57,447 nt of DNA from Mycobacterium sp. (GCA_023264765.1 JAHFVC010000002.1:1-57447), one strand, 5' to 3'. Shown: positions 5,201 through 40,687, numbered from the stretch's first letter. The notes: a model not told the origin generated them from the letters alone. A program made the numbers and translations.

Positions 5201-8200
5201 AGCCGATGTAGGCGTTGCCGCCGGTTCCGCCGGAGCCGCCGTAGCCGCCGGCGGTGTTGGTGCCGCCGGCTGCTCCGTTGGCGGCGGTGGCGTTGCCGGT
5301 GCCGGAGTTGAAGGCGTCTCCGCCGCCACCACCAGTGCCGCCGAATCCGCTGACACCTCCCACTCCAGCCACTCCGGCGGTGCCGCCGGTGGCGGTGCCG
5401 GATCCGCGGTTGGAGGCGTCTCCGCCGGTGCCGCCGGTGCCGCTGCCGTAGCCGGTGCGGGTGCCTACGGTGGTGGTTCCGCCGGTGCCGCCGGTTCCGC
5501 CGATGGCGTCGGCGGTGGCAGTGGTGTTGTCGATGTAGGCGGCCCCGCCGGTGCCGCCGTTGCCGCCACCGCTGGTGGCGGTGCCGTAGTTGGGGTCGTA
5601 GCCGCCGGTGGTGCCGTCGCCGCCGTCACCACCTCGGGCGCCTCGGGCGGTGTTGGTGTTGATGGCGTTGTTGATTTGGGCGTAGCCGCCGTTGCCGCCG
5701 CGCCCACCGGCGAAGGTGAGCCCGTCCCCGCCGTCGCCGCCGGTTCCGGCGTTGACTTGTCCGGTTCCGGTGGTCGAGGCGTAGCCGCCGTAGCCGCCGC
5801 TGCCGCCGTAAGCGCCGGTGGCCCCGGCGCCGCCGGCTCCGCCGGTGGCTGTGGCGGTGGAGGCATTGTTTTCGATTCGGGCGTAGCCGCCGGATCCGCC
5901 TGCTCCGCCGTAGCCGTAGCGGCTGCCGGTGTTGGAGGCTGCGGTGCCGTCTCGGCCGTAAGCGCCGGTGGCGTTGCCGGTTCCGTAGTTGATGGCGTTA
6001 CCGCCGGATCCTCCGTATCCGCCTGCGGCGCCGGTGCCTCCGACCCCACCCAATGCGCCGACGGCGTTTCCGCTGCCGTAGTTGGTGGCCGAGCCGCCGG
6101 TGCCGCCGCCGCCACCGGAGTAGGCGCTGCTGGTGATGGTGGAGCTGCCGTTGCCGCCGTTGCCGCCGGTTCCGCCGGTGGCGGTTTGGGTGGAGGTGGT
6201 GTTGTTGATGTTGGCGGCCCCGCCGTCTCCGCCGCGGCCGCCGTAGGCGTTGGTGGTGTTGGTGGTGGCGTTGCCGCCGGTTCCGCCGGTGCCTGCGGTG
6301 AGTTGGCCTAGTCCGTAGGTGTTGGCGGTGCCGCCGTTGCCTCCGTCGCCGCCACCGGTGGTGCCGTCACCGCCACGCCCACCGGCTCCGGCGGTCGCTT
6401 TCCCGGTCGAGGTAACGACGCCCACGTTGAGCGTTCCGCGACCAGGGATGTACGCGGTACCTCCGATTTGGGCGGCACCTCCCGAACCACCTGCTCCGCC
6501 AACCCCAGCGGTGTTGGTGGCGCCAGCCGCACCGGCGCCACCGACGGCGTTGCCGGTGCCCAAGGTATAGGCGGCCCCACCGGAACCGCCCACACCGCCC
6601 GAAGTTCCAGCGCTTCCCCCGGCGCCTCCGTAGGCGCTACCAGGGCCGGTGCTGACTGCGTCTCCACCGGTGCCGCCGGAGCCCCCGGTCGGATGCGATG
6701 AGTTTCCGGCTGCACCGGCGCCGCCGTCGCCACCACGAACATCACCCGTCGACAGCGCACCGCTGGCACCTGCGACCCCAGCCACGCCACCGGTGCCACC
6801 GGTACCGGCTCTGCCCCCGCCGCCTCCGGCTCCGGCAGTGCCTGCAACGCCGCTGAAACCGCCATCGCCGCCGGCACCGTCACGGCCGCCGGATCCGGTC
6901 TTGCCCCACACGCCTGCCGTACCGGCGCCGCCATTGCCAGCAGACCCGGCAGTTCCGCCTTTGCCGCCGGCGCCACCGGCGCCATTCACGCCCAGATGGC
7001 CCGACCCGCCCGCCGCGACACCGCCAGCATTACCGCCAGCTCCACCACTTCCACCGGTACCGCCGTTGCCGCCGCTGCCACCTGTACCGCCGGCTCCGTT
7101 GCTGGTGCCCGCGATGCCGGTAGCTCCGGCCGCTCCGGTGCCACCAACGCCGCCGGAACCGCCTCTGCCGCCCAGCCCACCGGCACCGCCGTTACCCGAC
7201 ACTGAACCACCAAGTCCGCCTTGACCGCCGACGCCTCCAGCTCCACCGGTGCCACCCGTACCGCCGGCGCCACCCGAAACTGTCGCCGTAGCACCGGCCA
7301 CACCGAGCCCTCCGGTGCCACCCGCACCGCCAGCCCCACCGTCGCCGATCGCCCCCGCATCGCCGCCGCGGCCCCCGGAACCACCGGCCTGACCTGAAAG
7401 ACCAACGCCACCTATACCGCCCGCTCCACCGTCGCCGCGGAGTTGGCCGCCATGCCCGCCGGCGCCGCCCGCTTGGCCTGCGAGCCCGGCGCCACCATCG
7501 CCGCCGTCACCGATCAGCTCGGCGTCACCACCCCGCCCGCCGTTGAAACCGTCACCGCCGTCGCCGATCAGTGCGCTCCCGCCGCCATTACATGCGGCGG
7601 CCGCAGAGCACGATGCAGCCGTATAGCTGAATCCGTCGCCGAACAACAGCCCCGCGTTGGCATGTCCGGCAGTGCCGTTGGCGATCAGTACACCGGCGTG
7701 TCCGACCGAAGCCCCGACGCCGTCGTAGTCGTCGATGCGGCTGCTGAGGGCATCGTTGATGGTGCCTTGCCCGGATGCCGCAGCGAATGTGTGATCGGCG
7801 AAAACGGTCCCGGTAGCGGCGTCGATGACCGTCACCACGCCGTGGGCGTCGCCGCCATCCAGTGCCAGCCCGTTGACATAGATCCGACTACCGTCCGCGC
7901 TGACGCCGATATTCGAAAGCGGTCCGGGTGTCTGGAACGTATCGACGGCGATGGACTTCGAGATGGTGTTCGTTGCCGTATTGATCACGTGCACAACACC
8001 TATCGCGGCACTGTCATTGATGGCATCGAGAAGGGTGTCACCGACGGTGTAGACGTCGTCGCCGGGCAGATTGACCGCACTGACGAAGAGGTGCTGGCCG
8101 TCGGCACTGACCACGAGACCGGTGGGCAGCTCGGCGGTGCTTAGCTTCTTCGTCACGACGTAGGTGTGACCGTCGATGACGTAAACAGCGCCCTTGACCT

Positions 8201-11200
8201 GTGAGTTGGATTCAGCCACATATGCGCTGGCGTAGACGTGATTGCCGTCCTGGCTGACCGCGATTCCGGTGAGTACTTCCTGCTGATCGGGACTGTCGAT
8301 ATCAACAGTGGCCACAACGGCGTTCGTCGTGGCGTCGATAACGTAGACAGCCCCCCGAACGTTCGCGTTTCCGTCGGTGCCATCGGTCGCGAGGTACGCG
8401 CTCGCGAAGATGTGCAGGCTGTCCGAACTGACGGCAATCGCCGTGATGACTTCTTGGTCGGCATTCCCGACGGGAATGGTCCCGATCACCGTATTCGTGG
8501 TGGTGCTGATCACCTTGATCGCCGTCTGCGTATGCGTGCCGCTGTCGACGGTCGTGGTGGCGTACACGCGCTTACCGTCGGGGCTGACCGCGAGATAGGA
8601 CAGGCCAACCGGATAGTCCGACTGTGCCGAGTTCGGCTGGTACGCAGCACCTATGGCAATTGCCGCGAGTTCGGTATTGGTGGCGGTGTCGATAACGTGG
8701 ACGGTCGGCTGCACCTGGGTGCCGTTGAAGTAGCTGGTGGCATAGACACGGGTGCCATCCGGACTCACCGCAACACCGATGACGCCGTTGTAGGGAGAAT
8801 CCGGGCCGATTGCGATGGTAGTGATGGTCGCGTTGGTCTTCGCATCGATGACGAACACCGCTGGAGCATCACCGAACCCGCTGCCGGCATAGATCCGCTT
8901 TCCGTCGGAACTGACTGCGATGGTGGTGGGCAGCTTGTCGCCGAGATCGATGCTGTGATCGTCAGGGTTGGCCACGGTGGGGGAGATGGTCAACGACACT
9001 GCGCGAACCGTCGTTCCGCCTTTACTGTCGCTGACGGTGACGGTGAAGCCGTCGGTGGTCGGTCCACCCGCCGCGGCAGCCTGTCGCGCCGCGACTGACG
9101 GTGTATACGTGAACTGGCGGGTGGCCGGGTCGAAGGTGAAACTATCGGCCCGGGAGGGCATTTGGGTGATGGTGAAGGTCAACGGGTCGCCGTCGACATC
9201 GGTAGCGTCGACGTGTCCGGAGACCGTTCCGGTTGATGAATCTGGGTTGCCGACCGTCGCATTCACCACCGGCGCGTGATTGGTGGGAGTGGGGGAGACG
9301 GCCACCTTGACGCTGATGGTGCCCGTTCCGCCGTGGCTGTCGGTGTAGGTGACAGTCAGGGTGTCGGCTTTGGTGGCAGCGCTGGCTCCGGCTTTGGCGG
9401 CGTTGTCCCTGGCCGTTTGGGTAGGTGTGTAGGTCAGCACATTGCCGGTGACGGTGTAGTTGCCCTTGGTGGTGGACCCGTTGCCGAATATCACGGTGTC
9501 ACCGTCGATGTCTGCGGCCTTGAGTGTGACGACAACAGTCCCGGAGTTGGTATCGGGTTGGGCGACAACAGCCGTCACGGTCGGCTTGGTGTTCTTGGGG
9601 CTGATGGTCACTGTGATCGGTACGTCGAGTACCCCGCCGTGCCCGTCGTCGACGGTGACGGTGAAGCTGTCCGACGCCGCCCCGCCGGCGGCGTCATGTC
9701 GTGCCGCGGGTGTGGGGGTGTAGGTGTAGGCGCCCTTGGTGGTGATGGTGACGGCTCCGAGAGTCGCGGCGCTGACGGTGTAGGTGAGGGTGTCTTTGTC
9801 CTTGTCGGTAGCTGTCACGCTGCCGGTGACGACGCCGGTGGTCGAATTCGGTTTGCCGACAGTGTGTTTCTCGGTGGGGTCGACATTCGAAGGCAGGATG
9901 TCGACAGTGATGCTGCGGTAGATGATGCCGCGCCGACCGTCGTCGATGGTGACGGTGAAGGCGTCGCTGGTTGCGCCGGACGCGGCAGCATTGTGGCGTG
10001 CCGCCGCAGTAGGCGTATAGGTGAACGTGCCATCGGCGTTGAGGACGACGGTGCCGTTGGCGGGTTTGGTGGCGGTGATACTGAGCTTGTCGCCGTCATT
10101 GTCGTGGACTGTGACACTTCCGGTGACCACGCCGGCACTGGTCGGAGCGTTAACCGTCTGGCTGACCACAATGGGGAACTGGTTCAGCGGGGCAAGTGCA
10201 ATGAATTGCAGCCCGTCGGCGGTCAGTGTGTAGGCCTGCTGCCCGTCGGGTGAAATCGCGAACCCACCGAGAACGCCTGCGCTGGAATCGAACCCGGCAT
10301 AAGTGGCCAGTGTCTTGGCGTCCACGACAGAGATGCCTTCGTTGCCGCTGACCAGCAACAGGGTGCCGTCTTTGTTGACAGTCAAAGCCGACGGCGTTTG
10401 ATCGAGGGTGGTAAAGCCGACCACGGTGTACTTGGCGGTCTCTACCGAGTAGATCGTGGCGTCACTGCCGCTGACGTAGAGTCGCGTACCGTCCGAGCTG
10501 ACTGCGATCGCCAGGGGCAAGCTGCCGACCCCGTTGATCTGCGTGGCCTTGGAAGAACTGGAAGCGAAAGCGAAGACGTGGCCGGTCAGGGTCTCGCCGG
10601 TGACCGGATCCACTTGCGGGGAAGCGACGTAGATCTTCTTCCCGTCGGGGCTGACCATGATGCTCAGCGGCAAGGTCCCCACGTTGGATACGGTTCCGCT
10701 GGCTTTGAGGCTGCTCGTCGAGATCTTGGTGACCGTGCCCGCGACATAGTTGCCCTTCGCGTCCTTGGCCGGTTGGCCGTTGGAGTCCAGATAGGCGGTG
10801 CCGACGTAGATGGTCTTTCCATCCGGGCTCAAGACCAGAGCTGTAGGCGTCTTGTCGTCCAATGCAATGGTTTTGGTGATCGCACCGGTTACCGTGTCGA
10901 CGACGACGACACTGTGGCCGGTGAAGTTCGCGACGTAGAGCTTCGCGCCGTCTGGGCTCGCGGCGATACCGGTCGGCTTGCCCCCGATGGTGATCGGGTC
11001 GAGCAGAACACCCCGAATGGTGTCGATGACGGAAATCGTGCCGTCGCTCCAATTAGTCACGTAGGCGCGGGTATTGGTGACGGCCACATCGAATCCGCCG
11101 CCCGTACCGGTGGGAATAACACCCGTCGCGGACACCGAGACCGCGCTGATCGGAACGGTAACCTGCACCGGGGCAGTGGTTTTCCCGTCGGAGACGGTGA

Positions 11201-13415
11201 CACTGAATACCGCGGTAGTCGCCGCCGGGTTCAGTCCGGCCAGCACCCGTTGAGCCGCGGTGGGGGTGTAGGTGAACGCTCCCGTCGTTTTGTTGAAGGT
11301 GAAGGTGCCACCGGCCGGGCCACTGATCAGCGTGTACGTGAGTTTTTTGCCGGTGGCGTCGGTGACGGTTCCGCTGACCGAGCCGGTGACTGGGTTGGGG
11401 GTGCCGACGACAGGCGCAGGTATGGCGCGGGTAGTGCCCGCGGCCGCCAGCGAGACGACCTGCAGCGTGCCGTTGTCGGCGACGTAGCTGTATTCCCTAC
11501 CGTCGGGGGACATCACACCGACGGGGTGGTACCCGTCGGTGCGCACTCCGGTGGAGACCACCTTGATCGCGCCGCCGTAGTTCCCGCCGCTCGTCAGGTC
11601 GAACGCCACCACGGCGTTGATGTCGGTGTAGACCGCCACGAGCACCGACCCGTCGCCACTGATCGTGATACCGCCCAGGCCACCGCCGAAGTTGGTGAAA
11701 TCACCAGCCACGGCGTTGGTCGTGGTATCGAACGCCACGATCTTCCCGGCACCCGCGTCGTTGACGTACAGGCGCTTTCCGTCTGGGCTGATCGCCGACT
11801 CGACGAAGTTCTCCCCCTGAGCGACCAGGGTTGCGGACTTGGCCGTCGAGGTGAAAGTGAACAAGCCGGTACCCGCGGGCGGACCGCCCGGCGTCGTAGC
11901 CAGCGTGGCAACGACGTAGACCTTCTTGCTGTCGGGGCTGACCACCAGACCGCGCAACGACGTCACGTCGCTGTCCGCGCCGGTCAGCGCCACGGTGCCG
12001 GTGACCTTGTTGGTCGACGTCGAGATCTTGGTGACCGTTGCGCCTGCAGCCCCGCCGGTCAATGCGTACAACGTCTTGCCGTCGGCGCTGACGGTAAGTC
12101 CACCAAGATCGCGATCCTGCAATTGGATATACGAGGTGATCCCGTTGGTCGCGGTGTTCACCACCGTAATCGCGCTCGAACTCGCGGTGGTGACGTAGAG
12201 CTTCTTGCCGTCCGGCGTCAGCGCGGAACCCACGGCCGGACTGTCCAGTGTGATGGTGCCGATGACGGCGCGTTGAACGGTGTCGATGACCGTGATGGTG
12301 TTGTCACCGGAATTCCGCACGTAGGCACGGGTATTGGACACCACTACCCCGGATCCGGCGCTACCGAACTCGACGGTCCCGGCATCGCTGAGTGACAGGG
12401 GCGAGATGGGTACGTCCACGGACTGCTCGACGGTGTTGACCCCGTCGGAGACCCTAACGGTGAGGGTGGCGACCTGCGCTCCGGTGCCCACTGCGGAAAG
12501 GATCCGCTGCACGGCGGTGGGGGTGTAGGTGAAAGCCGCGGATTTGGTGTTGAACACCAGTCCGGGCGGCGCCGAACCGACCACCGCGTAGGTCAACTTC
12601 TTCTTCTCGGGGTCGATTGCGGTGAGCTTGCCCGTCACCACCCCGGTGTCAGGGTTGGGCGATCCCATCGTGGTGGTTACCACGGGGGCCAGGTTCGCCG
12701 CCGCCGCCGTCACCAGAGGCTGTGACGTCAACCTCTGCGCCGCCGGCACCGACTCCGTTCCGGCGTCCGACCCGATCTGGCGCCGAGCCGCAGCCAACAA
12801 GACCCATTCGGCGGGGGACTGCACCGGCACATCCGTGCCCGGTGCCACCAGCGGCGAGGTCAACGTCTCGAGCACCGCCGCCCCGGTGCCGGTGGCGGCC
12901 GAGGCCTTGACTTCGGGGACCGGATCGGGTGCGACCGTCTGGTTGGAGACCGTACTGACGGGGGAAGCCACACTCGGGCTCACGGTGTGGGCCGGCTTCG
13001 GTTCCGGCACTGACGGCGTCTCGTCGGTGGCGGGCTTGGAGGCCTTTGGTGTCGAGCTGGTATTCGCTGCTGATGCGGTGGACGCCTCCTTCCGGGTGGT
13101 CTTGCGTTTCGGCACATGGATCGTGGATCTCGTGGTCTTACTCGGACGCGAGGGCGACGACGAGGTCGATACTCCAGGCTCAGCGGCGGCAGCGTCTGAC
13201 GCGGCCGGTGTCGTCGATGTGGGATCGCTTGCCCTGTCCGCTGTCGACGGAGCCTCTGCGCCGGCAGAGGAGCTCGAGCCCCCCGATGTCGTCGATGACG
13301 TCGAGGAGTCAGTGTCGGTCGGTTGCGCCCACGCTGGAACTGCGGCGACTGCGGATCCGATTCCGAGCGCTACTGCCAACGCTCCGACGCGGCCCACGTA
13401 CCTAGCTGATCCCAT
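2274..13415 (-). CDS. Giant secreted/surface protein (~3713 aa): signal peptide, Ig-like (Big_9/VCBS-type) repeats, YVTN beta-propellers, PGRS-like Gly-rich region, C-terminal alpha/beta hydrolase
   Basis: Uninterrupted ORF. ATG at 13415 follows RBS AAAGGAG. Signal peptide [20 protein letters not shown]...PAWA. Six YTP(T/S) Ig-type repeats, SPDGKxxYV blades, GGxGGxGG repeats, and GYSQGG at 2685-2702. Confidence 0.88.
4887..5153. repeat. 267-bp exact direct repeat, copy A (in-frame, 89 codons) in the Gly-rich region
   Basis: Identical line by line to 6147-6413 (offset 1260 bp). Confidence 0.92.
6147..6413. repeat. 267-bp exact direct repeat, copy B
   Basis: Identical to 4887-5153. Confidence 0.92.
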
Positions 13416-13720
13416 TGCTGCACTCCTTTGCTGGACGCAAAGAAGCATGCTGAGTCCCGAGGGAACAACACGCACGCAGCCGGCGCCCAACTTCACAGTC
13501 ATCGTCCACAAGTAGGTGGCACCGGCTGCGAATGGCTTGGGTATCACCTGGTAACGCGCCGAACATTAGCAGAGAAAGTATGTGCGTATGGGCCCAAATC
13601 CGACGTCAATTTTGATTGCTGAACTCACATCACCTTGCGGTTTTTCGGGCAATACGCCGTTCGGGGGACAAATTCGGCTCGGAAGTATCTGTCAGGCGGG
13701 CCGAAGCTCTCTCCTCGCGC

Positions 13721-32777: not shown

Positions 32778-34325
32778 ATGTCTATTGTCTGTTCCCATCT
32801 CTCATTCTCCTGGCCCGACAACACCCCGGTGTTCACCGACCTGTCCTTCGCTGTCGGGGCGGGGCGTACTGGTCTGGTCGCGCCCAACGGCTCCGGTAAG
32901 AGCACCCTGCTGCGGCTGATCGCCGGGGTCCTATCGCCTACGTCGGGCAGCGTGTCGGTCGACGGTGTGGTGGGCTATCTGCCGCAGGACTTGCCGTTCC
33001 TGGCTGAACAGACAGTGGCCGATGTTCTCGGTGTCACTGCGACTTTGGCGGCGCTGGACGCGCTGGCGGCCGGCGATGCGAGCGAGGCCGTGTTCGCCGC
33101 GATCGGGGATGATTGGGATATCGAGGAGCGACTGCGCGCGCAGGTGGGTGATCTCTCGCTGGACCGCGCTCTCGGCTCGCTCTCCGGTGGGCAGGTGGTG
33201 TCGCTGGGACTGACGGCGCAGCTGTTGAAGCGGCCGGACGTGCTCCTGCTCGACGAACCGACCAACAATCTGGATTCGGCTGCCCGACAACGGCTCTACT
33301 CGTCACTGGATGGCTTCGGTGGCACGTTGGTGGTGGTGAGCCACGACCGGGAACTGTTGGACCGGATGGATGCCATCGCGGAGTTGCGCGCCGGTGAGGT
33401 GTCGTTGTTCGGTGGCGGGTTCACGGCTTACGAGTCGGCCGTCGCTGCGGCACAACAAGTCGCGGAAGGAAACGTCCGCAATGCCGAACAGCAGTTGAAG
33501 CGACAGAAGCGGCAGATGCAGGAGGCGCGTGAGCGTGCTGACAAACGGGCATCGAATGCCGCGCGTAACGTCAAGGACGCCGGTCTCCCGAAAATCATTG
33601 CGGGGAAACTGAAAAGGAATGCCCAGGAGTCCGCGGCCAGGGCCGACGATGTGCACGGTCGTCGAGTGGGCGATGCGCGGTCGCGTCTGGATGAGGCCGA
33701 GCGGGCGTTGCGCGACGACGACGTGCTGGCGCTGGATCTGCCTTCTTCGGAGGTTCCTGCGGGGCGGGTGTTGTTCTCTGCGGCTGGTTTACGGTCGCTA
33801 GCGTTCGACGGTGTGGACCTGGATATCCGCGGCCCGGAGCGGATCGCGCTGACGGGGCCGAACGGGTCCGGGAAGTCGACATTGCTTCGGCTGGTGGTGG
33901 CGGGTGCGCAGGTTCCGGTGGCGTACTTGTCGCAGCGGCTGGACTTGTTGGATTCGTCGTCGACAGTGCTCGAGGCTCTGACGACATTCTCCCCGGCTCT
34001 GTCGGTGACTCGCCGGCGGCATGTGTTGGCGCAGTTCCTCTTTCATGGTGACATGGTGGATCTTCCGGTGAGTGCGCTGTCCGGTGGCGAACGGTTGCGG
34101 GCGACGCTGGCGTGCGTGTTGTTCGCCGAACCGGCACCGCAGTTGCTCTTGCTCGATGAGCCGACCAACAATCTCGACCTGGTCAGCATCGGGCAGTTGG
34201 AGTCCGCGTTGAATGCTTATCGTGGTGCGTTCGTCGTCGTCAGCCACGATGAGCGGTTCCTGGACAACATCGGAGTGCAGCGACGGTTGGTCTTGGATCA
34301 GGGCGTGCTCATGCCTTCGCCGTGA
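32778..34325 (+). CDS. ABC-F family ATPase (ribosome-associated, possibly ARE type)
   Basis: Two NBDs ([26 protein letters not shown]) joined by a long helical linker. No TM segments. Confidence 0.9.
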
Positions 34326-36609
34326 CGTCGGCTTGGGCTTCGGTGAGTAGGTCGTACTGGTGTAGCCAGTAGAGCCAGTCGGCGATGGCGGCGCGTTGGT
34401 CGGCGGTTTCGGTGGCGCTGTGGGCGCGGTAGAGCGCGAGGTCGGCGGAGTGTGCGGCGTACAGAACAAAGGCATTGAGGTGGGCGATTTCTCGTCCGCT
34501 GGCGATACTCATCAAGGGCTTCATCACGTCGAACCACAGCGTGAACGTCTCGTTGGCCGGCGGAGTGTTGTCCGCTTGGGCGGGCGGCAGTTGGGCGATG
34601 AGGTCGGCATCTCTGACCGCGGCCAATTTGGTTGCGGCGTCGGGGGACAGGATCTCCAGACGGGTACGGCCGGTCATCTTGCCGCTCGGCGGGATGTCGT
34701 CGTCCTCAAGCAGCACCTTGTGCGCCCCGGGGTCGATGCCTTCGAGATGGGTCTTCGCGCCGATCACTGCGCGCAGCGTCTTTTCATGCGCCTGAGCCCA
34801 AGCTGTCAGCGCGGCAACGGGGTAGGTCGCCCAGCGAGCCCGCTCGGTGGGAGGAATCGACGTATCGGCGCTGGCCATCTTCACCTGCTCGGGCAGGTTC
34901 ACCCCGTCGGGAATGTAAGCGATGCCGTAGCTGTTGGCGACGACGATCGTGTCGTCGGCGGTGAGTCCGACCAGCCAGAAGAAGCCGATGTCGTTGAGGC
35001 GCGACATGTCAGGTGCGTTCAGTGCGGCAGCGATCCGGCGAGCCACGCTCAATGGATCATTGCCGCCCATCTTGCGCTTCAAGGCGCCCGCTGCGGCCGA
35101 CGAGGCAATCAGGTCGCGTTCGGCGCGAGCTGTGGAGACCGGAATCGGTGCTGCCGCAGCCCCTCCGGGTTGGGCGTTGTTCGTGGCCGCGGGTAGGACG
35201 GGTGGTCCTGCCGCTGGAGCCACGGGCGCGGCCGGTGGCGGGGTGGCCGGGGCACCGAGTGGCATCGGGGGTGTCGGTGACGCGGGTGGTGCCGCGGGCG
35301 CGGACGGTGGCGCGACATTGCCGGTCGGGACAGCAGGATGTGTCGCCGCGGGTGCTGTCGGTGAACTGGCGGCTTGCTCGATGGGAGCGGCCGGCGCAGT
35401 GAGTGGTGTCGCGGGTGTCGCATTGCTCAGTGGTGCGGACGGAGGCTGGACTGGTGCCTGCATGCCCGTGGGCTTGGGACCTGTTGCGCCGGTTGCAGAT
35501 TCAGGTTTGGCAACTTGCGCGGCCTGTGGGGTTTGTGGCCCCTGAGCTGACTGGCCGGTCTGCGGGGATGTGGGGCTGCCCGGAGTGCCGCCTCCGCCGG
35601 GGGACGACATGGGTGAGGCGGGTGTGCCGCTGGGGCCGCCAGGGGTAGCGGGTAGGCCGGGCTGTCCGCTCGGACCGGGTGCAACTGGTCCTGCGGGCGC
35701 AGGTCCCGTCGGAGCGGTGGGGTGTGAGTTTGGAGGTGAGAGAGGGGCAGATGGTGCTGGTGGCGCGGCGCTGACGTCTTGGCGTCCCCCACCTAGCGGC
35801 GCCGCCGGAGGTGGATCACCCGGAGCTGGAGGGTTGACGACTGGCTTTGGTTTTGGTGCTTCGGCTACGGTGTCTTGCCTCCCGCCACCGATTGATGTCG
35901 TTTCTGTCTGGCCCGGCAAAGTCGGATTCTGTGGTGTCTCCACTGATCGCGGCGGCGCAGCCGAAGGCACTTGGCGAAGCCCACTAAGCCCAGTCGGGGG
36001 AATAGGCGGTTGGCCAGGTGTTGGCGTCGCCGGGGCTGGCTGGTCCCCGGCAGCGGGAAGATGCTGACGAAGCAGTTGATCCACTGCGTTAGCAGGTGGT
36101 TTCCACGTGTTAGTCGACGGAACCTGCGCACTCGTGCTTGCTATGACGCCTAGGTTAAGTGCGTGGTATGTGTTGACCACATTGTCGATCGCTTGCTTCC
36201 TGCTGTCGGCAGTGTCGTTTGGCTCGTTCGAGGCTTCTATCTCTGCGATCAACTCTTGAGCTTCTCGCACGTTGTTGGTTATGAGCGTCTTCGCGTTCAC
36301 CACCATGCCGGCGGCGTGGCTGTTCCATGTTGCGGCCGCCACGAGGTAATTCTGCAGTTGGGAGAACGCAACGGCATACGTTCCAGCCTTGCCGCTCGCG
36401 GCGCCAGCTGCACTCCCGATCCACACCCCGCCGTCAAATGTCTGATTGCGCTCGCGCGCCCAAGGCTCTGCAGATCTGAAAGTGAGTTCTTGCAGTGCTC
36501 GGGTACACGCAGTTGCGCAGTCGTAAAGGGAGTCTTCGTCGACATCAGGCCACGCGCCTGGAGAAAGTAGTCGGTCCGCGTATGGGCCGCCCGGCCGGCC
36601 TATGCCCAT
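34309..36609 (-). CDS. EspK-like type VII secretion-associated protein
   Basis: N-terminus [22 protein letters not shown] with WIG (WxG) and WKPP. Pro-rich linker. C-terminus [31 protein letters not shown] resembles Rv3879c as recalled. Confidence 0.85.
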
Positions 36610-36612
36610 CGG

Positions 36613-37734
36613 CTAGCTTCCTGCAGTGTTGCACGCGCCCAACACAATGCCCGGAGTCAGTAGTGCAACCTTGTAGAGGTGGAGGTCCGGTTGCGTATAA
36701 GTCGGGATTGCATTTACGAAGGCGCGTTGATATTGGGCTGAGAGCGTTGCGAGGTCTTCGAAAATCGCGTTGCCACTAGTCCTGCCAAGCTTGTCTAGCT
36801 CGTCCGCGAGAGATGTCAGAAGCGGCAGTACGGCGTCGTTGGCAGCCTTCTGCTCGGGGGACCATTGGCTCGCTGGTGGATTGGAATCGGTGGCGACCCA
36901 AGCCACGATCGCGGGGTTCGTGTCGTTTCTGTCGAGGGCCGCCTTCCAGTCCGAACAGACGGGATTCGGCTGCGAAAGGAATCTAGCTGGCTTGTTTGGG
37001 CTGCCGAGTGGCGCAACAGATGTCGGTGGTTGAGCCATCGCGGTCAACGGGGCGCGGGCTGCGGCGGACCCGTACGTGATGGCTTGGCAAATGTGGCTTA
37101 AGACTTGGCTGGCTCCGATCGCAGTCAGTGCCAATTGATCGTCGGGTGCCGTGTACAGCGGGATCCGATCCGCGTATGCCCGTGCGTAAGCAATGAACTG
37201 TTCGTAGAGTTCGCGCATCACCCTATGAGTTGTCAGCTTCACAAGGGGTACCGTTTGGTCTGCTGCAGCCCGCATGGCCTTCCCCACGGCCTCATACTGC
37301 GAGCGCAATTCTGGCCCCCAAACGTCAGCTGGCAAGGATGAGTCGCGCTGCAACCAGCCGCTTGGTTGGCTATTCGCGTAAGTGGTAAGAATCGGCATCC
37401 ACGGCGCACACGACGGATCCTCGGTGATCACCGATACCGGTCCGGTGTCATTCGCACTGGCGAAATCTGACGCAGGCGCACCGCTCGTTGTCGGTGCGGC
37501 AGTTGGTTTTTCAGTCCCGCCGCTGCTTTTCGTGCATGACACCGCAATGACAGCCGTGACGGCGATGACTGCTATCAGCGCGACCGCTCCGATGATCCAC
37601 TTCGCAAAGCTGCGCTTCGGCGGGGGCGGAGGCGTCTGCGGCCACCCCTGTTGCGGATTCCACTGTGGGCCAGGCTGTCCGCCCGGATAGCCTGGTGGCC
37701 ATCCAGGGCCCGGCGGTGGGGGCGGCTGAGTCAC
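36613..37734 (-). CDS. Single-pass membrane protein with Pro-rich N-terminus and two tandem Cys-bounded helical domains
   Basis: PPPPP/PQQGW N-terminus, TM WIIGAVALIAVIAVTAVIAV, and an internal duplication (CAPW...HIC and CSDW...GAC). GTGA overlap with the upstream gene. Confidence 0.8.
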   Translation of the reverse strand: MTQPPPPPGPGWPPGYPGGQPGPQWNPQQGWPQTPPPPPKRSFAKWIIGAVALIAVIAVTAVIAVSCTKSSGGTEKPTAAPTTSGAPASDFASANDTGPVSVITEDPSCAPWMPILTTYANSQPSGWLQRDSSLPADVWGPELRSQYEAVGKAMRAAADQTVPLVKLTTHRVMRELYEQFIAYARAYADRIPLYTAPDDQLALTAIGASQVLSHICQAITYGSAAARAPLTAMAQPPTSVAPLGSPNKPARFLSQPNPVCSDWKAALDRNDTNPAIVAWVATDSNPPASQWSPEQKAANDAVLPLLTSLADELDKLGRTSGNAIFEDLATLSAQYQRAFVNAIPTYTQPDLHLYKVALLTPGIVLGACNTAGS

Positions 37735-38489
37735 AACACACTCTCCGGCGACGGGCTGGGCGACGCATGACGGTGTGGATCTTCGGGCGCTCGTTCGGAC
37801 GGTGTCGTTCCCGGCGCAGCACCGGCCGGCTCCGCCTCGTCGGGAGAATCCTCGCGGCGGTGCTTACCCTCGTGGTGCTTCTCGTCCTCCGACTTGTCTT
37901 CTGGCTTCTCGCCGCCGCCAGCCTTGCCGGCAACCTGGCTGACCTGCTCGGCGATCTGCTGCACTCCTTGCATCGCGGTCTGCGGCAGCTGTCCCGCCAT
38001 GCCCATCACCTGTTGCGGAAGCTGCGCGGCTTGGCTCGCGATCTGCATCGGCACTTGCATCATCTGCCCGAGCTGACCGGCTCCTTGAGACGCTGCGCCG
38101 GCCGCACCGGATCCCGATCCGCCGACCCCGGCAGCCACGCCGGACGCGGCACTCGCGGCGCCGCCCCCGCCTGCACCACCGCCACTACCGGAGCCGCCGA
38201 CCTGAGCAGACAACTTGCTGTGCAACTGGGCGTCTGTCGCCGCGTAGCGCTCGGCAACGGTCTTGATGTTCTGTGCGAACTGATTGGTCTCGGCCTTCAG
38301 TAGCGGCAAGCCGGACACGATCGGCGCCAGAAACTGCGGTGCCAAGCTGGCGATCACCGTCGACAGGGGGTCGGATCCGCTCGGTGTGTAGCCCGCCGGT
38401 GCCTGTGGGATGGCGTTGGAGGCCGTCAGAAAGTTCTCCCCGGCACGCGCCAACGCGGTCGTGTCGACCTTCAGATTCTCAGGCGCCAT
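37731..38489 (-). CDS. EspJ-like type VII secretion substrate
   Basis: LKVDTTAL...PQAPA...SGSDPLS...GLP...YAATD (YxxxD) resembles Rv3878 as recalled. Gln-rich middle region. Confidence 0.75.
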   Translation of the reverse strand: MAPENLKVDTTALARAGENFLTASNAIPQAPAGYTPSGSDPLSTVIASLAPQFLAPIVSGLPLLKAETNQFAQNIKTVAERYAATDAQLHSKLSAQVGGSGSGGGAGGGGAASAASGVAAGVGGSGSGAAGAASQGAGQLGQMMQVPMQIASQAAQLPQQVMGMAGQLPQTAMQGVQQIAEQVSQVAGKAGGGEKPEDKSEDEKHHEGKHRREDSPDEAEPAGAAPGTTPSERAPEDPHRHASPSPSPESVL

Positions 38490-38773
38490 GACCGTGCATT
38501 CCGTCGGACATCACCCGAACCCCCGAGATCCCCACGACTCGGCACGGCGCCACGGCCTCAAATAGCATCGATATTCCCCTCCGCATGCCTCAGCTAAGAC
38601 AGTACCCAACCTAGGAGGGGCTTCACTGCACAACATTCCGGCGTCTTCGCAGCTCAACAATGGCTCCACTGGGGCCTCATCTGTTTGCTGCGAATACGCC
38701 TACCAGTAAGACGCAGAAGGTGAACGGCACGGCACCGAGCTCATCTGCTCTGCCAGAACAGCATTGGAACGGC

Positions 38774-39499
38774 TCAATCCGCCTGCGGACGAGTGGCTGC
38801 AGGCCGTTGTTTGGGCGCGGGTGTCTCCACCGGCGCTCGCTCGGACGGCACCGCCGAACCGGCCCCGGCCCCGCGCTCGTCAGGCTTGTCGCGCTCCTTG
38901 TCGCGATCATCCTTCGATTTCGCTTCAGGACGACGGTCCTTCTTCTCGTCCTCCGCGTCGGGAAGGTCGCCCACCCGTGCTTGGGACGCCTGCTGCACAC
39001 CCTGCATGATCTGCTGCGGAATCTGCTGCAACCCTTGAGCGAGGCCCTGCAACGGCTGGGCGATCGACTGCGCCATCTGGCCCACCTGCTGACCGACCTG
39101 GCCCAGGATCTGCCCCAGCTGTCCGGAGGTATCTCCGGCCGCCGCGCCGCCCGATGGCATCGCGGAACCACCGGGGGAGTCTTTGCCCTCCAACACCTCC
39201 GCCGCGGCGGTGAACCGCTGGGCGTCCTGCTCGTCGCCACGGGCATACGCGTCGGCGGCCTTCTGCAGGAGGTCCGAGATAGTGCTTGCCGTCGTCGACG
39301 TGGCCCCGAGTGAATCCCGTCGGTTGTTCAGGACACCAGAAAGTGCCATGCTGACCGCTGAGGCGATGGGTCCGTGACTCGTATCGACACCAGCTCCGTC
39401 CTCACCGAGGAGACCGGACAGGTTCGCGGCGACATCCGCGTGTGTCTGCGCGAACCTCCGCAAACCGTCGGTCTGTACGTCGAGCGGATCGGTGGTCAT
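38774..39499 (-). CDS. EspC/EspF-family type VII secretion target with extended C-terminus
   Basis: L.V..DGLR.FA..H, SHGPIAS, and LQKAADAYARGD (YxxxD). Confidence 0.8.
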   Translation of the reverse strand: MTTDPLDVQTDGLRRFAQTHADVAANLSGLLGEDGAGVDTSHGPIASAVSMALSGVLNNRRDSLGATSTTASTISDLLQKAADAYARGDEQDAQRFTAAAEVLEGKDSPGGSAMPSGGAAAGDTSGQLGQILGQVGQQVGQMAQSIAQPLQGLAQGLQQIPQQIMQGVQQASQARVGDLPDAEDEKKDRRPEAKSKDDRDKERDKPDERGAGAGSAVPSERAPVETPAPKQRPAATRPQAD

Positions 39500-39526: not shown

Positions 39527-40687
39527 CTATTGCTGCGCTTCACCGCCGTCGGGCACCAATTCCTCGACCTGGCGCGCCGCGTCGGCCGCGGCTGCACCGA
39601 AACCCAAACCGGACCACTCCTCGGAGACCGCCGCCAGGCCGATGGCGTCGCGCCCAGCCAGCGCACGGGCATGCGATGCCGTCACCCGCGCGAAGACGCA
39701 CCGAATCGGCAGGCCTTCGAGTGAAACCGCCGCCCGAACATCGCCCAGCCGCACCCCGTCGTGTGCCGCGCGCAACGCCACCGCCGATTGCCCACCGCGG
39801 TCGGCCGCGCGAAAGGACTCCCGCGCCGCCCCGACCGCGCCGATGGAATCCTTACGCGCCCAGCAGGTCCATGCTCGTGCCAGGGCGAGCTCAGGTGCGA
39901 ACAGCATCGACTTCAACCCATGGCGGGACTCCGCCCGCCCCAAAGCCTTTGCCGCCGCGACCGTCGACCCTTGCTGCCCGAGCGTCTGCGCCAACAGCAT
40001 CCATGCCAGCGGCGTCCACGAATATCCGGTGGGTGCCAAACTGTCTGCGGCCGAACGCAACAGGCCCACGGCGTCGTCCAGTTCGCCGCGAAACGTCAGC
40101 ACCTCGGCGATCAACAACTGCCCGATCGAATGCCCGGGGCCATCGTCGGCTGTCAGCTCTCGGGCCACCGACTCGGCTTGGTCCAGATCGCCTCCAAACA
40201 CCGCTGCGAGCACCTGTCCGTAACCGGAGGTGTAGCGCAGCAATCCCGGGTGCCCGGCCGAGACGGCACGTGACGCCAATGAGTCGACCGGTTCGAACTC
40301 GCCCATCCGCGCGTGCGCCAGCGCTGCCGCAGACGCCGCCCAGCCGACCGCTTGATCAGTGGCCTCGACAGAAGTCAGCACCGAATCCGACAACTCGCGC
40401 GCACGGTGCAGGTCGCCGGCGTTCATCGCGAACGTGCCCAGCAACGCGTCCACCGTGGCGTCGGAGGAGACCCGGCCGCGCAGTGCCCGCAGGAACGCCG
40501 TCGCCCGCTCGGGCTCGTCGAGCATCCAGAACTGGTTGGCCGCGCGCGGCAACGCCCACGCCATCAGGTCCGCTTCGTCCAAAGAGGCCGGGTCCACCGC
40601 GGCGAGCACCTCGTCTGCATCGCGACCGCGGCCCTGCCACGCCAGGTCCTGTGCCCGCGCCAACAGCGACGACAACGACTCAGCCAC
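39527..40687 (-). CDS. TPR-like helical protein homologous to the C-terminal part of Rv1204c plus Rv1203c; no ATPase domain
   Basis: WALPRAANQFWML, TGYSW.PL and SMLFAPELALARAW. TACACT -10 lies 6 nt before the GTG. Divergent from LOG. Confidence 0.75.
   Translation of the reverse strand: MAESLSSLLARAQDLAWQGRGRDADEVLAAVDPASLDEADLMAWALPRAANQFWMLDEPERATAFLRALRGRVSSDATVDALLGTFAMNAGDLHRARELSDSVLTSVEATDQAVGWAASAAALAHARMGEFEPVDSLASRAVSAGHPGLLRYTSGYGQVLAAVFGGDLDQAESVARELTADDGPGHSIGQLLIAEVLTFRGELDDAVGLLRSAADSLAPTGYSWTPLAWMLLAQTLGQQGSTVAAAKALGRAESRHGLKSMLFAPELALARAWTCWARKDSIGAVGAARESFRAADRGGQSAVALRAAHDGVRLGDVRAAVSLEGLPIRCVFARVTASHARALAGRDAIGLAAVSEEWSGLGFGAAAADAARQVEELVPDGGEAQQ

What the first reader, a model, noticed from the sequence alone, without database searches (positions are those of the whole stretch)
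34309..39499. Orphan type VII secretion substrate cluster: EspC-like, EspJ-like, membrane protein, EspK-like, with no ESX machinery nearby
Seen: four co-oriented genes between dapE/ABC-F and LOG. The last three are tightly coupled (GTGA overlap at 37731-37734; 3-bp gap at 36610-36612). YxxxD signals occur in the EspJ-like (38232-38246) and EspC-like (39233-39247) proteins, and WxG occurs in the EspK-like protein (36415-36423). The stretch ~35850-37600 looks more AT-rich. Known: espJ and espK reside in the ESX-1 locus in convergent orientation, and T7SS substrates are exported as YxxxD/E + WxG heterodimers. Inference: a stand-alone EspJ-EspK pair plus a cognate membrane partner that plugs into ESX-1 in trans, possibly for kin recognition, conjugal mating identity or interbacterial interaction.
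Basis: partly seen in the sequence, partly recalled or inferred. Interest (0 to 1): 0.78.

Follow-up and report, generated by a model that had tools for sequence, protein, structure and literature searches.

The report
Relocated mycobacterial self-identity gene cassette
These genes are an environmental mycobacterium's only assembled copy of the known 'mating identity' trio (espJ, mid, espK), sitting far from its secretion-machine locus and swapped between relatives as a variable block, and a structure model predicts that the trio's membrane protein binds its neighbour's secreted domain, which would explain how these bacteria likely tell self from non-self before exchanging DNA.

Summary
The last three genes are the mycobacterial mid (mating-identity) module espJ–Msmeg0070–espK. 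The membrane protein matches the self-identity determinant of Clark et al. 2022, and EspK's C-domain matches PDB 8AKO (E 3e-83). They are not an extra set: this is the only full espK and the only mid found in the assembly. ESX-1 is split exactly where they normally sit, here and in four close relatives. Displacement was noted in passing in print; here it covers about half of sampled modules (29 of 59 full-length loci), at four or more recurrent sites. The AT-rich stretch is a ~1.7-kb block (Mid ectodomain plus EspK N-domain) that is synonymously saturated between close relatives, consistent with allele swapping. New lead: a complex model has the Mid ectodomain binding the EspK N-domain (0.78 against best control 0.00). 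This suggests that recipient-secreted EspK is read by the donor's cognate Mid, which would fit the published 'mid–esx1 paradox'. Covariation tests were inconclusive, and the modelled interface is not hypervariable. The first gene is a tailed EspC/F-family gene lacking its usual EspA/E neighbour.

The parts
38774..39499 (-). Gene A: EspC/EspF-family (PF10824) N-domain with YxxxD, plus a Gln-rich/acidic tail like that of B; its usual EspA/E-type neighbour is absent here
   Evidence: Pfam E 8.6e-16; tail 35% identical to B over 101 aa, E 4e-9; an EspA/E+TPR_23 gene lies within 2.5 kb of 5 of the 8 other long-tailed A-like ORFs
39233..39247 (-). YxxxD (YARGD) secretion-signal motif of A
37731..38489 (-). 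Gene B: espJ (Msmeg0069) homologue, PE-like N-domain of about 100 aa plus a disordered tail
   Evidence: Weak PE match below cut-off; B and its profile hit the gene directly after eccD1 in slow-grower ESX-1 loci L048, L049, L057, L058; msmeg_0069 = espJ per PMC8262963 passage
38232..38246 (-). YxxxD (YAATD) of B; Y and D invariant in 40 of 40 homologues
36613..37734 (-). Gene C: Mid (Msmeg0070) homologue. Pro-rich N-tail, one hydrophobic segment, ectodomain of two tandem four-helix repeats with four invariant Cys
   Evidence: Shared motifs with Fig S2 of PMC9040860; 1097 homologues, precomputed PF27060; invariant C109, C216, C260, C368; AF2 model mean pLDDT 81.6; internal repeat 27% over 113 aa, E 1e-13
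37540..37596 (-). Predicted transmembrane helix of Mid (about aa 47-65), preceded by K/R residues (N-in, C-out inferred)
   Evidence: Kyte-Doolittle 19-residue maximum 3.0 at aa 47
37303..37335 (-). Mid loop aa 134-144, the main predicted contact with the EspK N-domain (also aa 189-195)
   Evidence: model only
34309..36609 (-). Gene D: espK (Msmeg0071) homologue. PPE-like N-domain, Pro-rich linker, EspB-binding C-domain
36055..36609 (-). EspK N-domain (aa 1-185) with WxG at 36415-36423; predicted Mid-binding face aa 29-36, 93-108, 171-185
   Evidence: AF2 pLDDT 95.5; top four Foldseek rows are PPE chains, best E 0.11, prob 0.99, TM about 0.5, none at E<=0.001
34333..35058 (-). EspK C-domain (aa 518-759), conserved, EspB-binding in the solved homologue
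   Evidence: 8AKO chain B, E 3e-83; PMC9811218 passages
35700..37400 (.). Hypervariable, AT-richer allele block spanning the Mid ectodomain and the EspK N-domain and early linker (edges approximate)
   Evidence: Nucleotide identity to L066 is 0.47-0.67 inside against mostly 0.79-0.93 outside; GC is low in all four aligned alleles; synonymous sites saturated
39527..40687 (-). Upstream flank: TPR-like gene, co-oriented, 28 bp before A; not part of the module
   Evidence: conserved flank in L065, L066, L069
32778..34325 (+). Downstream flank: ABC-F protein, convergent, 17-bp overlap with espK

Best explanation
Genes B-C-D are this genome's only assembled espJ-mid-espK module, lying apart from a split ESX-1 locus, and they likely work as a self/non-self check in which EspJ and EspK are likely exported as a pair by ESX-1 in trans and the membrane-anchored Mid ectodomain is predicted to bind the EspK N-domain. 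Steps: (1) shown: gene identity, single copy, split ESX-1, and a variable block holding both predicted partners between conserved anchors. (2) From papers: EspJ, EspK and EspB are ESX-1 substrates in M. marinum; EspK's C-domain holds EspB monomeric; Msmeg0070 confers self-identity in M. smegmatis. (3) Predicted: the Mid ectodomain binds the EspK N-domain while EspJ is present. (4) Inferred: a recipient delivers EspJ:EspK (possibly towing EspB) to a contacting cell; a cell with the same mid allele captures it and the signal that starts distributive conjugal transfer is blocked, while a non-cognate cell does not capture it and transfer proceeds. (5) Inferred: homologous recombination in the conserved anchors swaps cognate pairs together and creates new identities. 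Gene A is likely an orphaned export partner of an EspA/E-type protein that is present beside it in relatives. Confidence: identity and relocation about 0.9; function in self-identity about 0.75; the recipient-ligand/donor-receptor mechanism about 0.45.
For: Identity. Single copy and split ESX-1; in G044 eccE1 and eccD1 lie 387 kb apart on one contig. Swap block: against L066, flanking genes are 90-95% identical (synonymous difference 0.33-0.43), the Mid ectodomain 61% (0.76), the EspK N-domain 53% (0.85), but Mid aa 1-90 89% and the EspK C-part 95%; L065 against L069 gives the same pattern. This is the pattern reported for M. smegmatis (0070 35%, 0071 N-part 27%, C-part 93%). Complex model: score 0.78, best of 3 controls 0.00; the mark was reached by 116 of 157 solved complexes and 2 of 215 mismatched pairs (these counts hold only roughly for a three-chain job with my own alignments); runs agree in at least 97% of contacts; partner pLDDT at least 92. 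No solved fold like Mid was found, so a pass from memory of a like complex is not evident. Mid lies directly upstream of espK in 75 of 100 fetched EspK-N loci. The published genetics fit: donor 0070 is needed for exclusion while donor 0071, eccCb1 and esxBA are not, and esx1 and mid gene mutants cannot act as recipients.
Against: Covariation over 123 non-redundant Mid/EspK pairs did not single out the interface. MI-APC mean z was 0.06 over 23 contacts, p 0.37. Inverse covariance gave p 0.035 uncorrected for kinship, with 0 of the top 200 inter-chain pairs in the interface block (about 1 expected); power was low. Among five close alleles the modelled interface is more conserved than the rest (EspK 0.69 vs 0.55; Mid 0.61 vs 0.57), which is not what a lock-and-key site predicts. 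L085/L107 differ strongly in Mid (48%) but less in the EspK N-domain (79%). 48 of 80 Mid-like loci have no adjacent espK. Two relatives (G041, G043) lack eccB1 and the ESX-1 core yet keep the cassette. The loss of recipient ability in a 0070 mutant needs an extra assumption (polarity or a role in cis). EspK has no recognisable toxic domain. Conjugation, secretion and binding were not tested in this organism.
Confidence: 0.55

Rival explanations
1. Same displaced mid module, but self-recognition is homotypic Mid-Mid contact between cells. EspJ/EspK serve only ESX-1 secretion (EspB chaperoning), and the EspK N-domain varies because it hitch-hikes in the recombining block.
For: Donor espK, eccCb1 and esxBA are dispensable for exclusion in M. 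smegmatis; 48 of 80 Mid-like loci lack espK; the cassette is retained in two genomes without an ESX-1 core; covariation is inconclusive; Mid can change without the EspK N-domain following (L085/L107).
Against: The complex model passes strongly against controls. Mid and espK stay adjacent through repeated relocation. Partial correlation of Mid and EspK-N identity given the EspK C-domain is 0.40 over 34 loci, although linkage alone could give this.
Confidence: 0.22
2. Mid binds its own cell's EspJ:EspK in cis, as a periplasmic chaperone or anchor that displays or escorts the pair. Identity is read from other, variable surfaces of the complex by a partner not yet identified.
For: The modelled interface is relatively conserved among close alleles; recipient 0070 mutants cannot receive DNA; the complex model fits binding in cis equally well; Mid-like genes without espK often sit beside PE-PPE-esx genes.
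Against: It does not by itself explain why donor Mid is needed for exclusion while donor EspK and donor ESX-1 are not.
Confidence: 0.16
3. One reading: an extra, stand-alone EspJ-EspK set in addition to canonical copies at ESX-1.
For: The assembly is 92% complete in 586 contigs, contig C155 ends inside espB, and espL is not found in the assembly. A distant EspK-N/EspJ-like pair exists on C348, and a weak EspK-like gene on C441.
Against: eccD1 is followed by non-ESX genes. In the 5 relatives read, espB-espL is followed by non-ESX genes and EspK is single. The C348 pair lacks the EspK C-domain and Mid.
Confidence: 0.04
4. A decaying or neutral relic of a broken ESX-1 locus.
For: A has lost its usual neighbour, and a 184-aa EspA/E-like remnant lies on C404; some relatives have lost the ESX-1 core.
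Against: All four frames are open. Signal residues and cysteines are invariant, dN is far below dS in the anchors, and the site is conserved in 3 named relatives with full flanks. An independent run carries the same allele.
Confidence: 0.03

Closest known systems
M. smegmatis mid locus, Msmeg0069-0070-0071 (Gray 2013 PMC3706393; Clark 2022 PMC9040860)
   Same: Same gene order and tight coupling. About 380-aa Pro-rich single-TM Mid with shared motifs and Cys pattern. Polymorphic Mid and EspK N-part, conserved EspK C-part. Clark et al. already state that in some species 0069/0070 orthologues are absent from esx1 and colocated elsewhere, and speculate that 0069 and the 0071 N-part may interact and coevolve with 0070.
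   Different: Here the whole trio including espK lies outside a split ESX-1 at dapE/ABC-F and is preceded by a tailed EspC/F-family gene. EspJ is mostly conserved within this clade rather than ~28% identical. No mating phenotype is known for this organism.
ESX-1 substrates EspJ, EspK, EspB of slow growers (PDB 8AKO, PMC9811218; Group II substrates, PMC13203967)
   Same: EspK C-domain E 3e-83; PPE-like N-domain with invariant WxG; EspJ with invariant YxxxD; espB, eccE1, mycP1 and the ESX-1 core present elsewhere in the genome.
   Different: Slow-grower loci fetched here have espJ and espK convergent inside ESX-1 and no Mid.
EspA/EspC and EspE/EspF pairs (PF18879 / PF10824)
   Same: A is a PF10824 member with YxxxD; relatives encode a 794-aa PF18879+PF23275 protein just upstream.
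   Different: A carries a 141-aa EspJ-like tail, and its EspA/E neighbour and the following lipoprotein-like genes are missing in the window and in L066.
T7SS toxin-immunity systems such as EatA/EatI (PMC13444075, abstract only)
   Same: A T7SS-exported protein plus a cognate protective partner acting between mycobacteria (works-like resemblance).
   Different: No catalytic toxin domain in EspK; the variable part is N-terminal; the partner gene lies upstream; the known readout is conjugal exclusion, not killing; ESX-1 rather than ESX-4.

Membership tests
mid locus (Msmeg0069-0071) | Co-oriented, tightly linked espJ, 0070 and espK homologues | tested here: met
mid locus (Msmeg0069-0071) | Middle gene: ~380 aa, Pro-rich, one N-proximal TM helix, homologous to Msmeg0070 | tested here: met
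   373 aa, 47 Pro, hydrophobic peak at aa 47; six short motifs picked by eye from the MKD8 row of Fig S2 are all present. No M. smegmatis sequence was retrieved by a tool, so there is no E-value against Msmeg0070 itself.
mid locus (Msmeg0069-0071) | Mid and EspK N-part highly polymorphic, EspK C-part conserved | tested here: met
   (between close species; within-species polymorphism not shown)
mid locus (Msmeg0069-0071) | Located inside esx1 after eccD1 (canonical; exceptions already noted in print) | tested here: not met
   hence filed as a displaced variant
mid locus (Msmeg0069-0071) | Confers self-identity in distributive conjugal transfer | not testable with these tools
   needs mating assays
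EspK | WxG helical N-domain, Pro-rich linker, EspB-binding C-domain | tested here: met
EspJ | PE-like N-domain with YxxxD, homologous to the gene after eccD1 | tested here: met
   (direct BLAST 33%/90 aa, E 8e-7 to L049)
EspJ:EspK export heterodimer | The two N-domains pair and are exported by ESX-1 | tested here: inconclusive
   Both were in the model with pLDDT 87, but only Mid was scored; export not testable here
EspC/EspF with EspA/EspE partner | PF10824 domain with YxxxD | tested here: met
EspC/EspF with EspA/EspE partner | Adjacent PF18879 partner gene | tested here: not met
   PF18879 matches only on C328, C404 and C469
Polymorphic toxin-immunity pair | Toxic domain in the exported protein | tested here: inconclusive
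   No Pfam or NCBIfam family in D; domains are PPE-like and EspB-binding
Polymorphic toxin-immunity pair | Cognate partner binds the exported protein allele-specifically | tested here: inconclusive
   Binding predicted; specificity not shown

The most novel reading that the evidence does not exclude
Mid and the EspK N-domain are a cognate receptor-ligand pair encoded head-to-tail in one swappable 1.7-kb block. The recipient's ESX-1 delivers EspJ:EspK (towing EspB) to a neighbour, and a neighbour with the matching Mid neutralises it and is spared, while a non-matching one is triggered to give up DNA. The trio behaves as a free-moving identity module that has left ESX-1 repeatedly across Mycobacterium and can outlast the ESX-1 core. 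This would resolve the published mid-esx1 paradox and recast distributive conjugal transfer as a recipient-driven, immunity-gated process.
Probability: 0.35. Interest if true: 0.85.

Novelty: new variant of a known kind. Interest (0 to 1): 0.6.

Why it matters
How Msmeg0070 confers self-identity, and why mid sits in esx1 although donor ESX-1 is dispensable for exclusion, are stated open questions (PMC9040860). The finding gives a named partner, a residue-level predicted interface and natural allele series (123 non-redundant pairs), so the question can be tested directly by pull-downs and allele swaps in M. smegmatis. It also shows that ESX-1 annotation by locus misses espJ/espK in roughly half of Mid-bearing loci sampled, and that an AT-rich dip can mark an identity-allele block. 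The gene identities themselves are known, and displaced copies were mentioned in print, which caps the score.

Tried and rejected
Pfam and NCBIfam gave no family for C or D; the Vmc-like lipoprotein-signal match to C (E 4.5e-4) was set aside because that Cys is absent in the M. smegmatis rows. Fold searches for Mid found nothing clear: Foldseek had no match at E<=0.001, and the best VIA Z was 6.8 (rmsd 3.3, 111 aligned) among generic four-helix bundles. This shows neither a new nor a known fold. The promoter/terminator scan was at chance level (1 vs 0.6; 6 vs 4.1). No RNA holder was listed, so expression is untested. Run X4 lacks cover over the variable block, but no contig joins across it, so this is not taken as evidence of another allele. 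Two covariation methods were inconclusive. A homologue search with B aa 1-110 returned 8 unnamed or hypothetical proteins. The tblastn step failed (python not on the shell path) and was rerun. Table S2 of Clark et al. held only SNV counts; supplements 1 and 3 were not read. PMC11302016 and PMC7916490 passages added nothing on Mid. Earlier scan findings: two look-ups, nothing returned. Literature searches returned no paper that tests Mid-EspK binding or surveys displaced mid modules beyond Clark's sentences; subscription journals are largely outside this library. Rejected readings: extra paralogous set, decaying relic, foreign island as the cause of the low GC (only the internal block is AT-richer, and it is so in every allele).
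Full report
1. Observation. The four minus-strand ORFs, both junctions and the three motifs are at the stated coordinates. The motifs are conserved across homologues: WxG in 46 of 46 EspK N-domains, and the Y and D of YxxxD in 40 of 40 EspJ-like domains. The AT-richer stretch is real (GC 0.600 vs 0.667). A co-oriented TPR-like gene 28 bp upstream of A was overlooked. The stretch is spanned by one contig of run X1 (possibly the source) and largely covered by run X2 of another study at more than 99% identity.

2. Gene identities. A is PF10824 (EspC family; E 8.6e-16) with a tail resembling B's. D aa 518-759 matches EspK in PDB 8AKO at E 3e-83. Its N-domain folds confidently (pLDDT 95.5), and its nearest solved folds are PPE chains, though only at E 0.11. 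B matches the gene after eccD1 in slow-grower ESX-1 loci. C has 1097 homologues, named sources all mycobacterial among the 120 listed, marked PF27060 (family name not given). Clark et al. 2022 (PMC9040860; I read parts 1-5 of 7 of the text and supplements 2 and 4) show that Msmeg0070, a ~380-aa Pro-rich single-TM protein between Msmeg0069 and 0071, confers self-identity in distributive conjugal transfer. C shares long motifs and the four-Cys pattern with their Fig S2 alignment; this comparison is by eye and by six motifs I chose because they matched. A passage of PMC8262963 equates msmeg_0069 with espJ and msmeg_0071 with espK. So B-C-D is the mid module. The AF2 model of C shows a disordered N-tail, a hydrophobic helix and two tandem four-helix repeats, without a clear solved match.

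3. Sole copy, split ESX-1. The window is contig C112 of a 6.7-Mb, 586-contig, 92%-complete genome. ESX-1 genes (named by Pfam hits and by gene order, partly from recall) lie on C328 (espE to eccCa1), C140 (eccCb1 to eccD1) and C155 (mycP1, eccE1, espB cut by the contig end). eccD1 is followed without gap by phosphoribosyltransferase, PNPOx-like and maltokinase genes. Only one EspK C-domain and one Mid are found; espL is not in the assembly, so a gap remains behind espB. The same A-B-C-D order between the TPR gene and ABC-F/dapE occurs in M. canariasense (L065), an M. cosmeticum MAG (L066) and M. sp. 120266 (L069), and A-B-C-D(part) on a short contig of M. sp. J2 (L067). In 5 of 5 genomes searched EspK is single, and espB-espL is followed by non-ESX genes. 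In G044 the two ESX-1 arms are 387 kb apart. Clark et al. mention in one sentence that 0069/0070 orthologues lie outside esx1 in some species.

4. How common. Of the best 80 loci found with C (of 102 confirmed), 28 have co-oriented espJ-mid-espK: 19 without an ESX-1 core gene in view (12 with over 7 kb on both sides) and 9 with. Four have mid-espK without an adjacent upstream espJ, and 48 have a Mid-like gene alone. In a draw of 300 scored genus genomes 137 had an EspK-N match. I fetched 100 of the 150 listed matches, leaving out my own genome, genomes already read and most top-scoring matches (of the 30 short loci for the best matches only 3, one my own, had Mid nearby). Of the 100, 75 have Mid directly upstream: 41 without and 34 with ESX-1 core genes in the stretch; 29 and 30 when only stretches of 18 kb or more are counted. 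Of 15 genomes with an apparently displaced module, 13 have exactly one EspK C-domain, one has two part-matches and one none. In G005, G024 and G062 EspK lies 0.5-2.7 Mb from eccB1 on the same contig. Flanks group into at least four shared sites (dapE/ABC-F; pafA-pafB; O-methyltransferase/zinc dehydrogenase; DUF255/prenyltransferase) plus singletons. On an EspK C-domain tree of 42 rows (4 unlabelled) the displaced/in-ESX-1 label needs 7 changes, at least 5 forced by supported branches. Caveats: one short contig is labelled displaced, the root is arbitrary, and the gene can recombine. Repeated relocation is likely; its direction and order were not tested.

5. The AT-rich stretch is an allele block. 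Against L066, flanking genes are 90-95% identical with synonymous difference 0.33-0.43, Mid aa 1-90 89%, EspK aa 491-766 95%, but the Mid ectodomain 61% (0.76) and EspK aa 1-190 53% (0.85); B's N-domain is also raised in this pair (76%, 0.72). L065 against L069: flanks 91-95%, Mid ectodomain 54%, EspK-N 55%, EspK C-part 97%. Nucleotide identity drops between about 37400 and 35700, where GC is low in all four alleles. Saturated synonymous sites point to replacement by old, divergent alleles rather than fast point change alone (inference). Not every close pair swaps: L084/L093 keep 87% and 86%.

6. Mechanism. I folded EspK(1-190), EspJ(1-100) and the Mid ectodomain with Mid as the scored partner. 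The score was 0.78 with the best of 3 controls at 0.00; the mark was reached by 116 of 157 solved complexes and 2 of 215 mismatched pairs, counts that hold only roughly for this three-chain job; contacts agree at least 97% and partner pLDDT is at least 92. Confident contacts join Mid aa 134-144 and 189-195 to EspK aa 29-36, 93-108 and 171-185; none with EspJ was listed. The model supports binding but does not show it. Both partners lie in the one swap block. Clark's genetics show donor 0070 needed for exclusion, donor 0071, eccCb1 and esxBA not needed, and recipients needing esx1 and mid genes. A recipient-exported EspK read by the donor's Mid accounts for this asymmetry, which the authors call the mid-esx1 paradox; they themselves speculate that 0069 and the 0071 N-part may interact with 0070. 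EspJ, EspK and EspB are ESX-1 Group II substrates in M. marinum (PMC13203967 passages), and EspK's C-domain keeps EspB monomeric (PMC9811218 passages), so EspB could be the cargo whose action is gated (speculative). Against: covariation across 123 non-redundant pairs (from 136 usable of 140) is null by MI-APC (p 0.37) and marginal by inverse covariance (p 0.035, uncorrected; 0 of the top 200 pairs in the interface; low power); the interface is more conserved than the rest among five close alleles; 48 of 80 Mid-like loci lack espK; and G041 and G043 keep the cassette while lacking eccB1 and showing an espG1-espI fusion that removes the ESX-1 core. Homotypic Mid recognition and an in-cis chaperone role remain live rivals.

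7. Gene A. All 9 long-tailed A-like ORFs seen (including the window's) lie in Mid-EspK loci, though all loci were chosen for Mid or EspK. Five of the other 8 have an EspA/E-type gene within 2.5 kb. L065 and L069 carry a 794-aa PF18879+PF23275 gene and one or more ~300-aa lipoprotein-like genes between the TPR gene and A; the window and L066 do not. A is likely an orphaned export partner.

8. Comparison and verdict. Same as the M. smegmatis mid locus in genes, order and polymorphism; different in location, in the added EspC-family gene, and in lacking any measured phenotype. It works like a cognate exported-protein/partner pair (cf. EatA/EatI, PMC13444075, abstract only) but no toxic domain is evident, so it is not filed there. 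Other papers seen as passages only: PMC3706393, PMC10906988, PMC11302016, PMC7916490. Unread supplements of Clark et al. (1, 3) and papers outside the library may bear on the novelty claim. Verdict: new variant of a known kind; interest 0.6, carried by the testable Mid-EspK hypothesis and the extent of relocation.

Noticed in passing
L152:4464-6505 (G041) and L153:14867-16911 (G043): An espG1-espI fusion ORF follows espF and precedes eccD1, and no eccB1 orthologue is found (best 36%): a natural deletion of the ESX-1 core in M. canariasense and M. sp. J2, which still keep the mid cassette.
   Followed up: partly
L065:3623-8104, L069:3643-8036, L115:13334-16449, L117:15098-18291: 740-800-aa EspA/EspE+TPR_23 proteins with divergent C-termini followed by ~260-300-aa lipoprotein-like genes (tandem copies in L069) beside mid modules; the layout looks like a polymorphic effector with immunity genes.
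   Followed up: partly
G000:C348:1701-3581: A distant second pair: EspK-N-like 374-aa ORF without the C-domain followed by an EspJ-like 249-aa ORF; the EspJ-like gene is matched in four relatives too.
   Followed up: partly
G000:C404:18983-19537: A short (184 aa) EspA/E-like ORF, 45% identical to the N-part of the 794-aa protein of L065; possibly a remnant.
   Followed up: no
L026 (G000:C441):98-13158: An ESX locus of apparently plasmid type with a distant EspK-like 827-aa gene preceded by a Pro/Gly-rich 216-aa membrane-like gene; the genome has 9 EccB matches on 8 contigs, i.e. several extra ESX systems.
   Followed up: no
L121, L130, L118, L098 and similar: Mid-family genes with an acidic N-tail and no espK lie next to PE-PPE(-esx pair) clusters in Mycolicibacter and other slow growers; three such genomes searched had no EspK or EccB1 match.
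   Followed up: partly
L045, L046, L138, L144, L347, L354: Two or three Mid copies in one locus, as would be expected for accumulated receptor or immunity alleles.
   Followed up: no
L051-L054, L058 (G010): One genome carries five EspK copies at scattered sites, mostly beside EspB-like genes, with no Mid in the fetched stretches.
   Followed up: no
window 32778-34325: ABC-F protein best matching the ribosomal-protection-like family NF000355 at 335.7 bits, below the 380 cut-off; overlaps the espK end by 17 bp.
   Followed up: no
window 2274-13547 (-) and about 1250-2250: A 3757-aa ORF, and a stretch as AT-rich as the mid block near its end.
   Followed up: no
window 34483 and 35283: Runs X1, X2 and X3 all read another letter at these two places in espK, so the window letters may be rare variants or assembly errors.
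   Followed up: no
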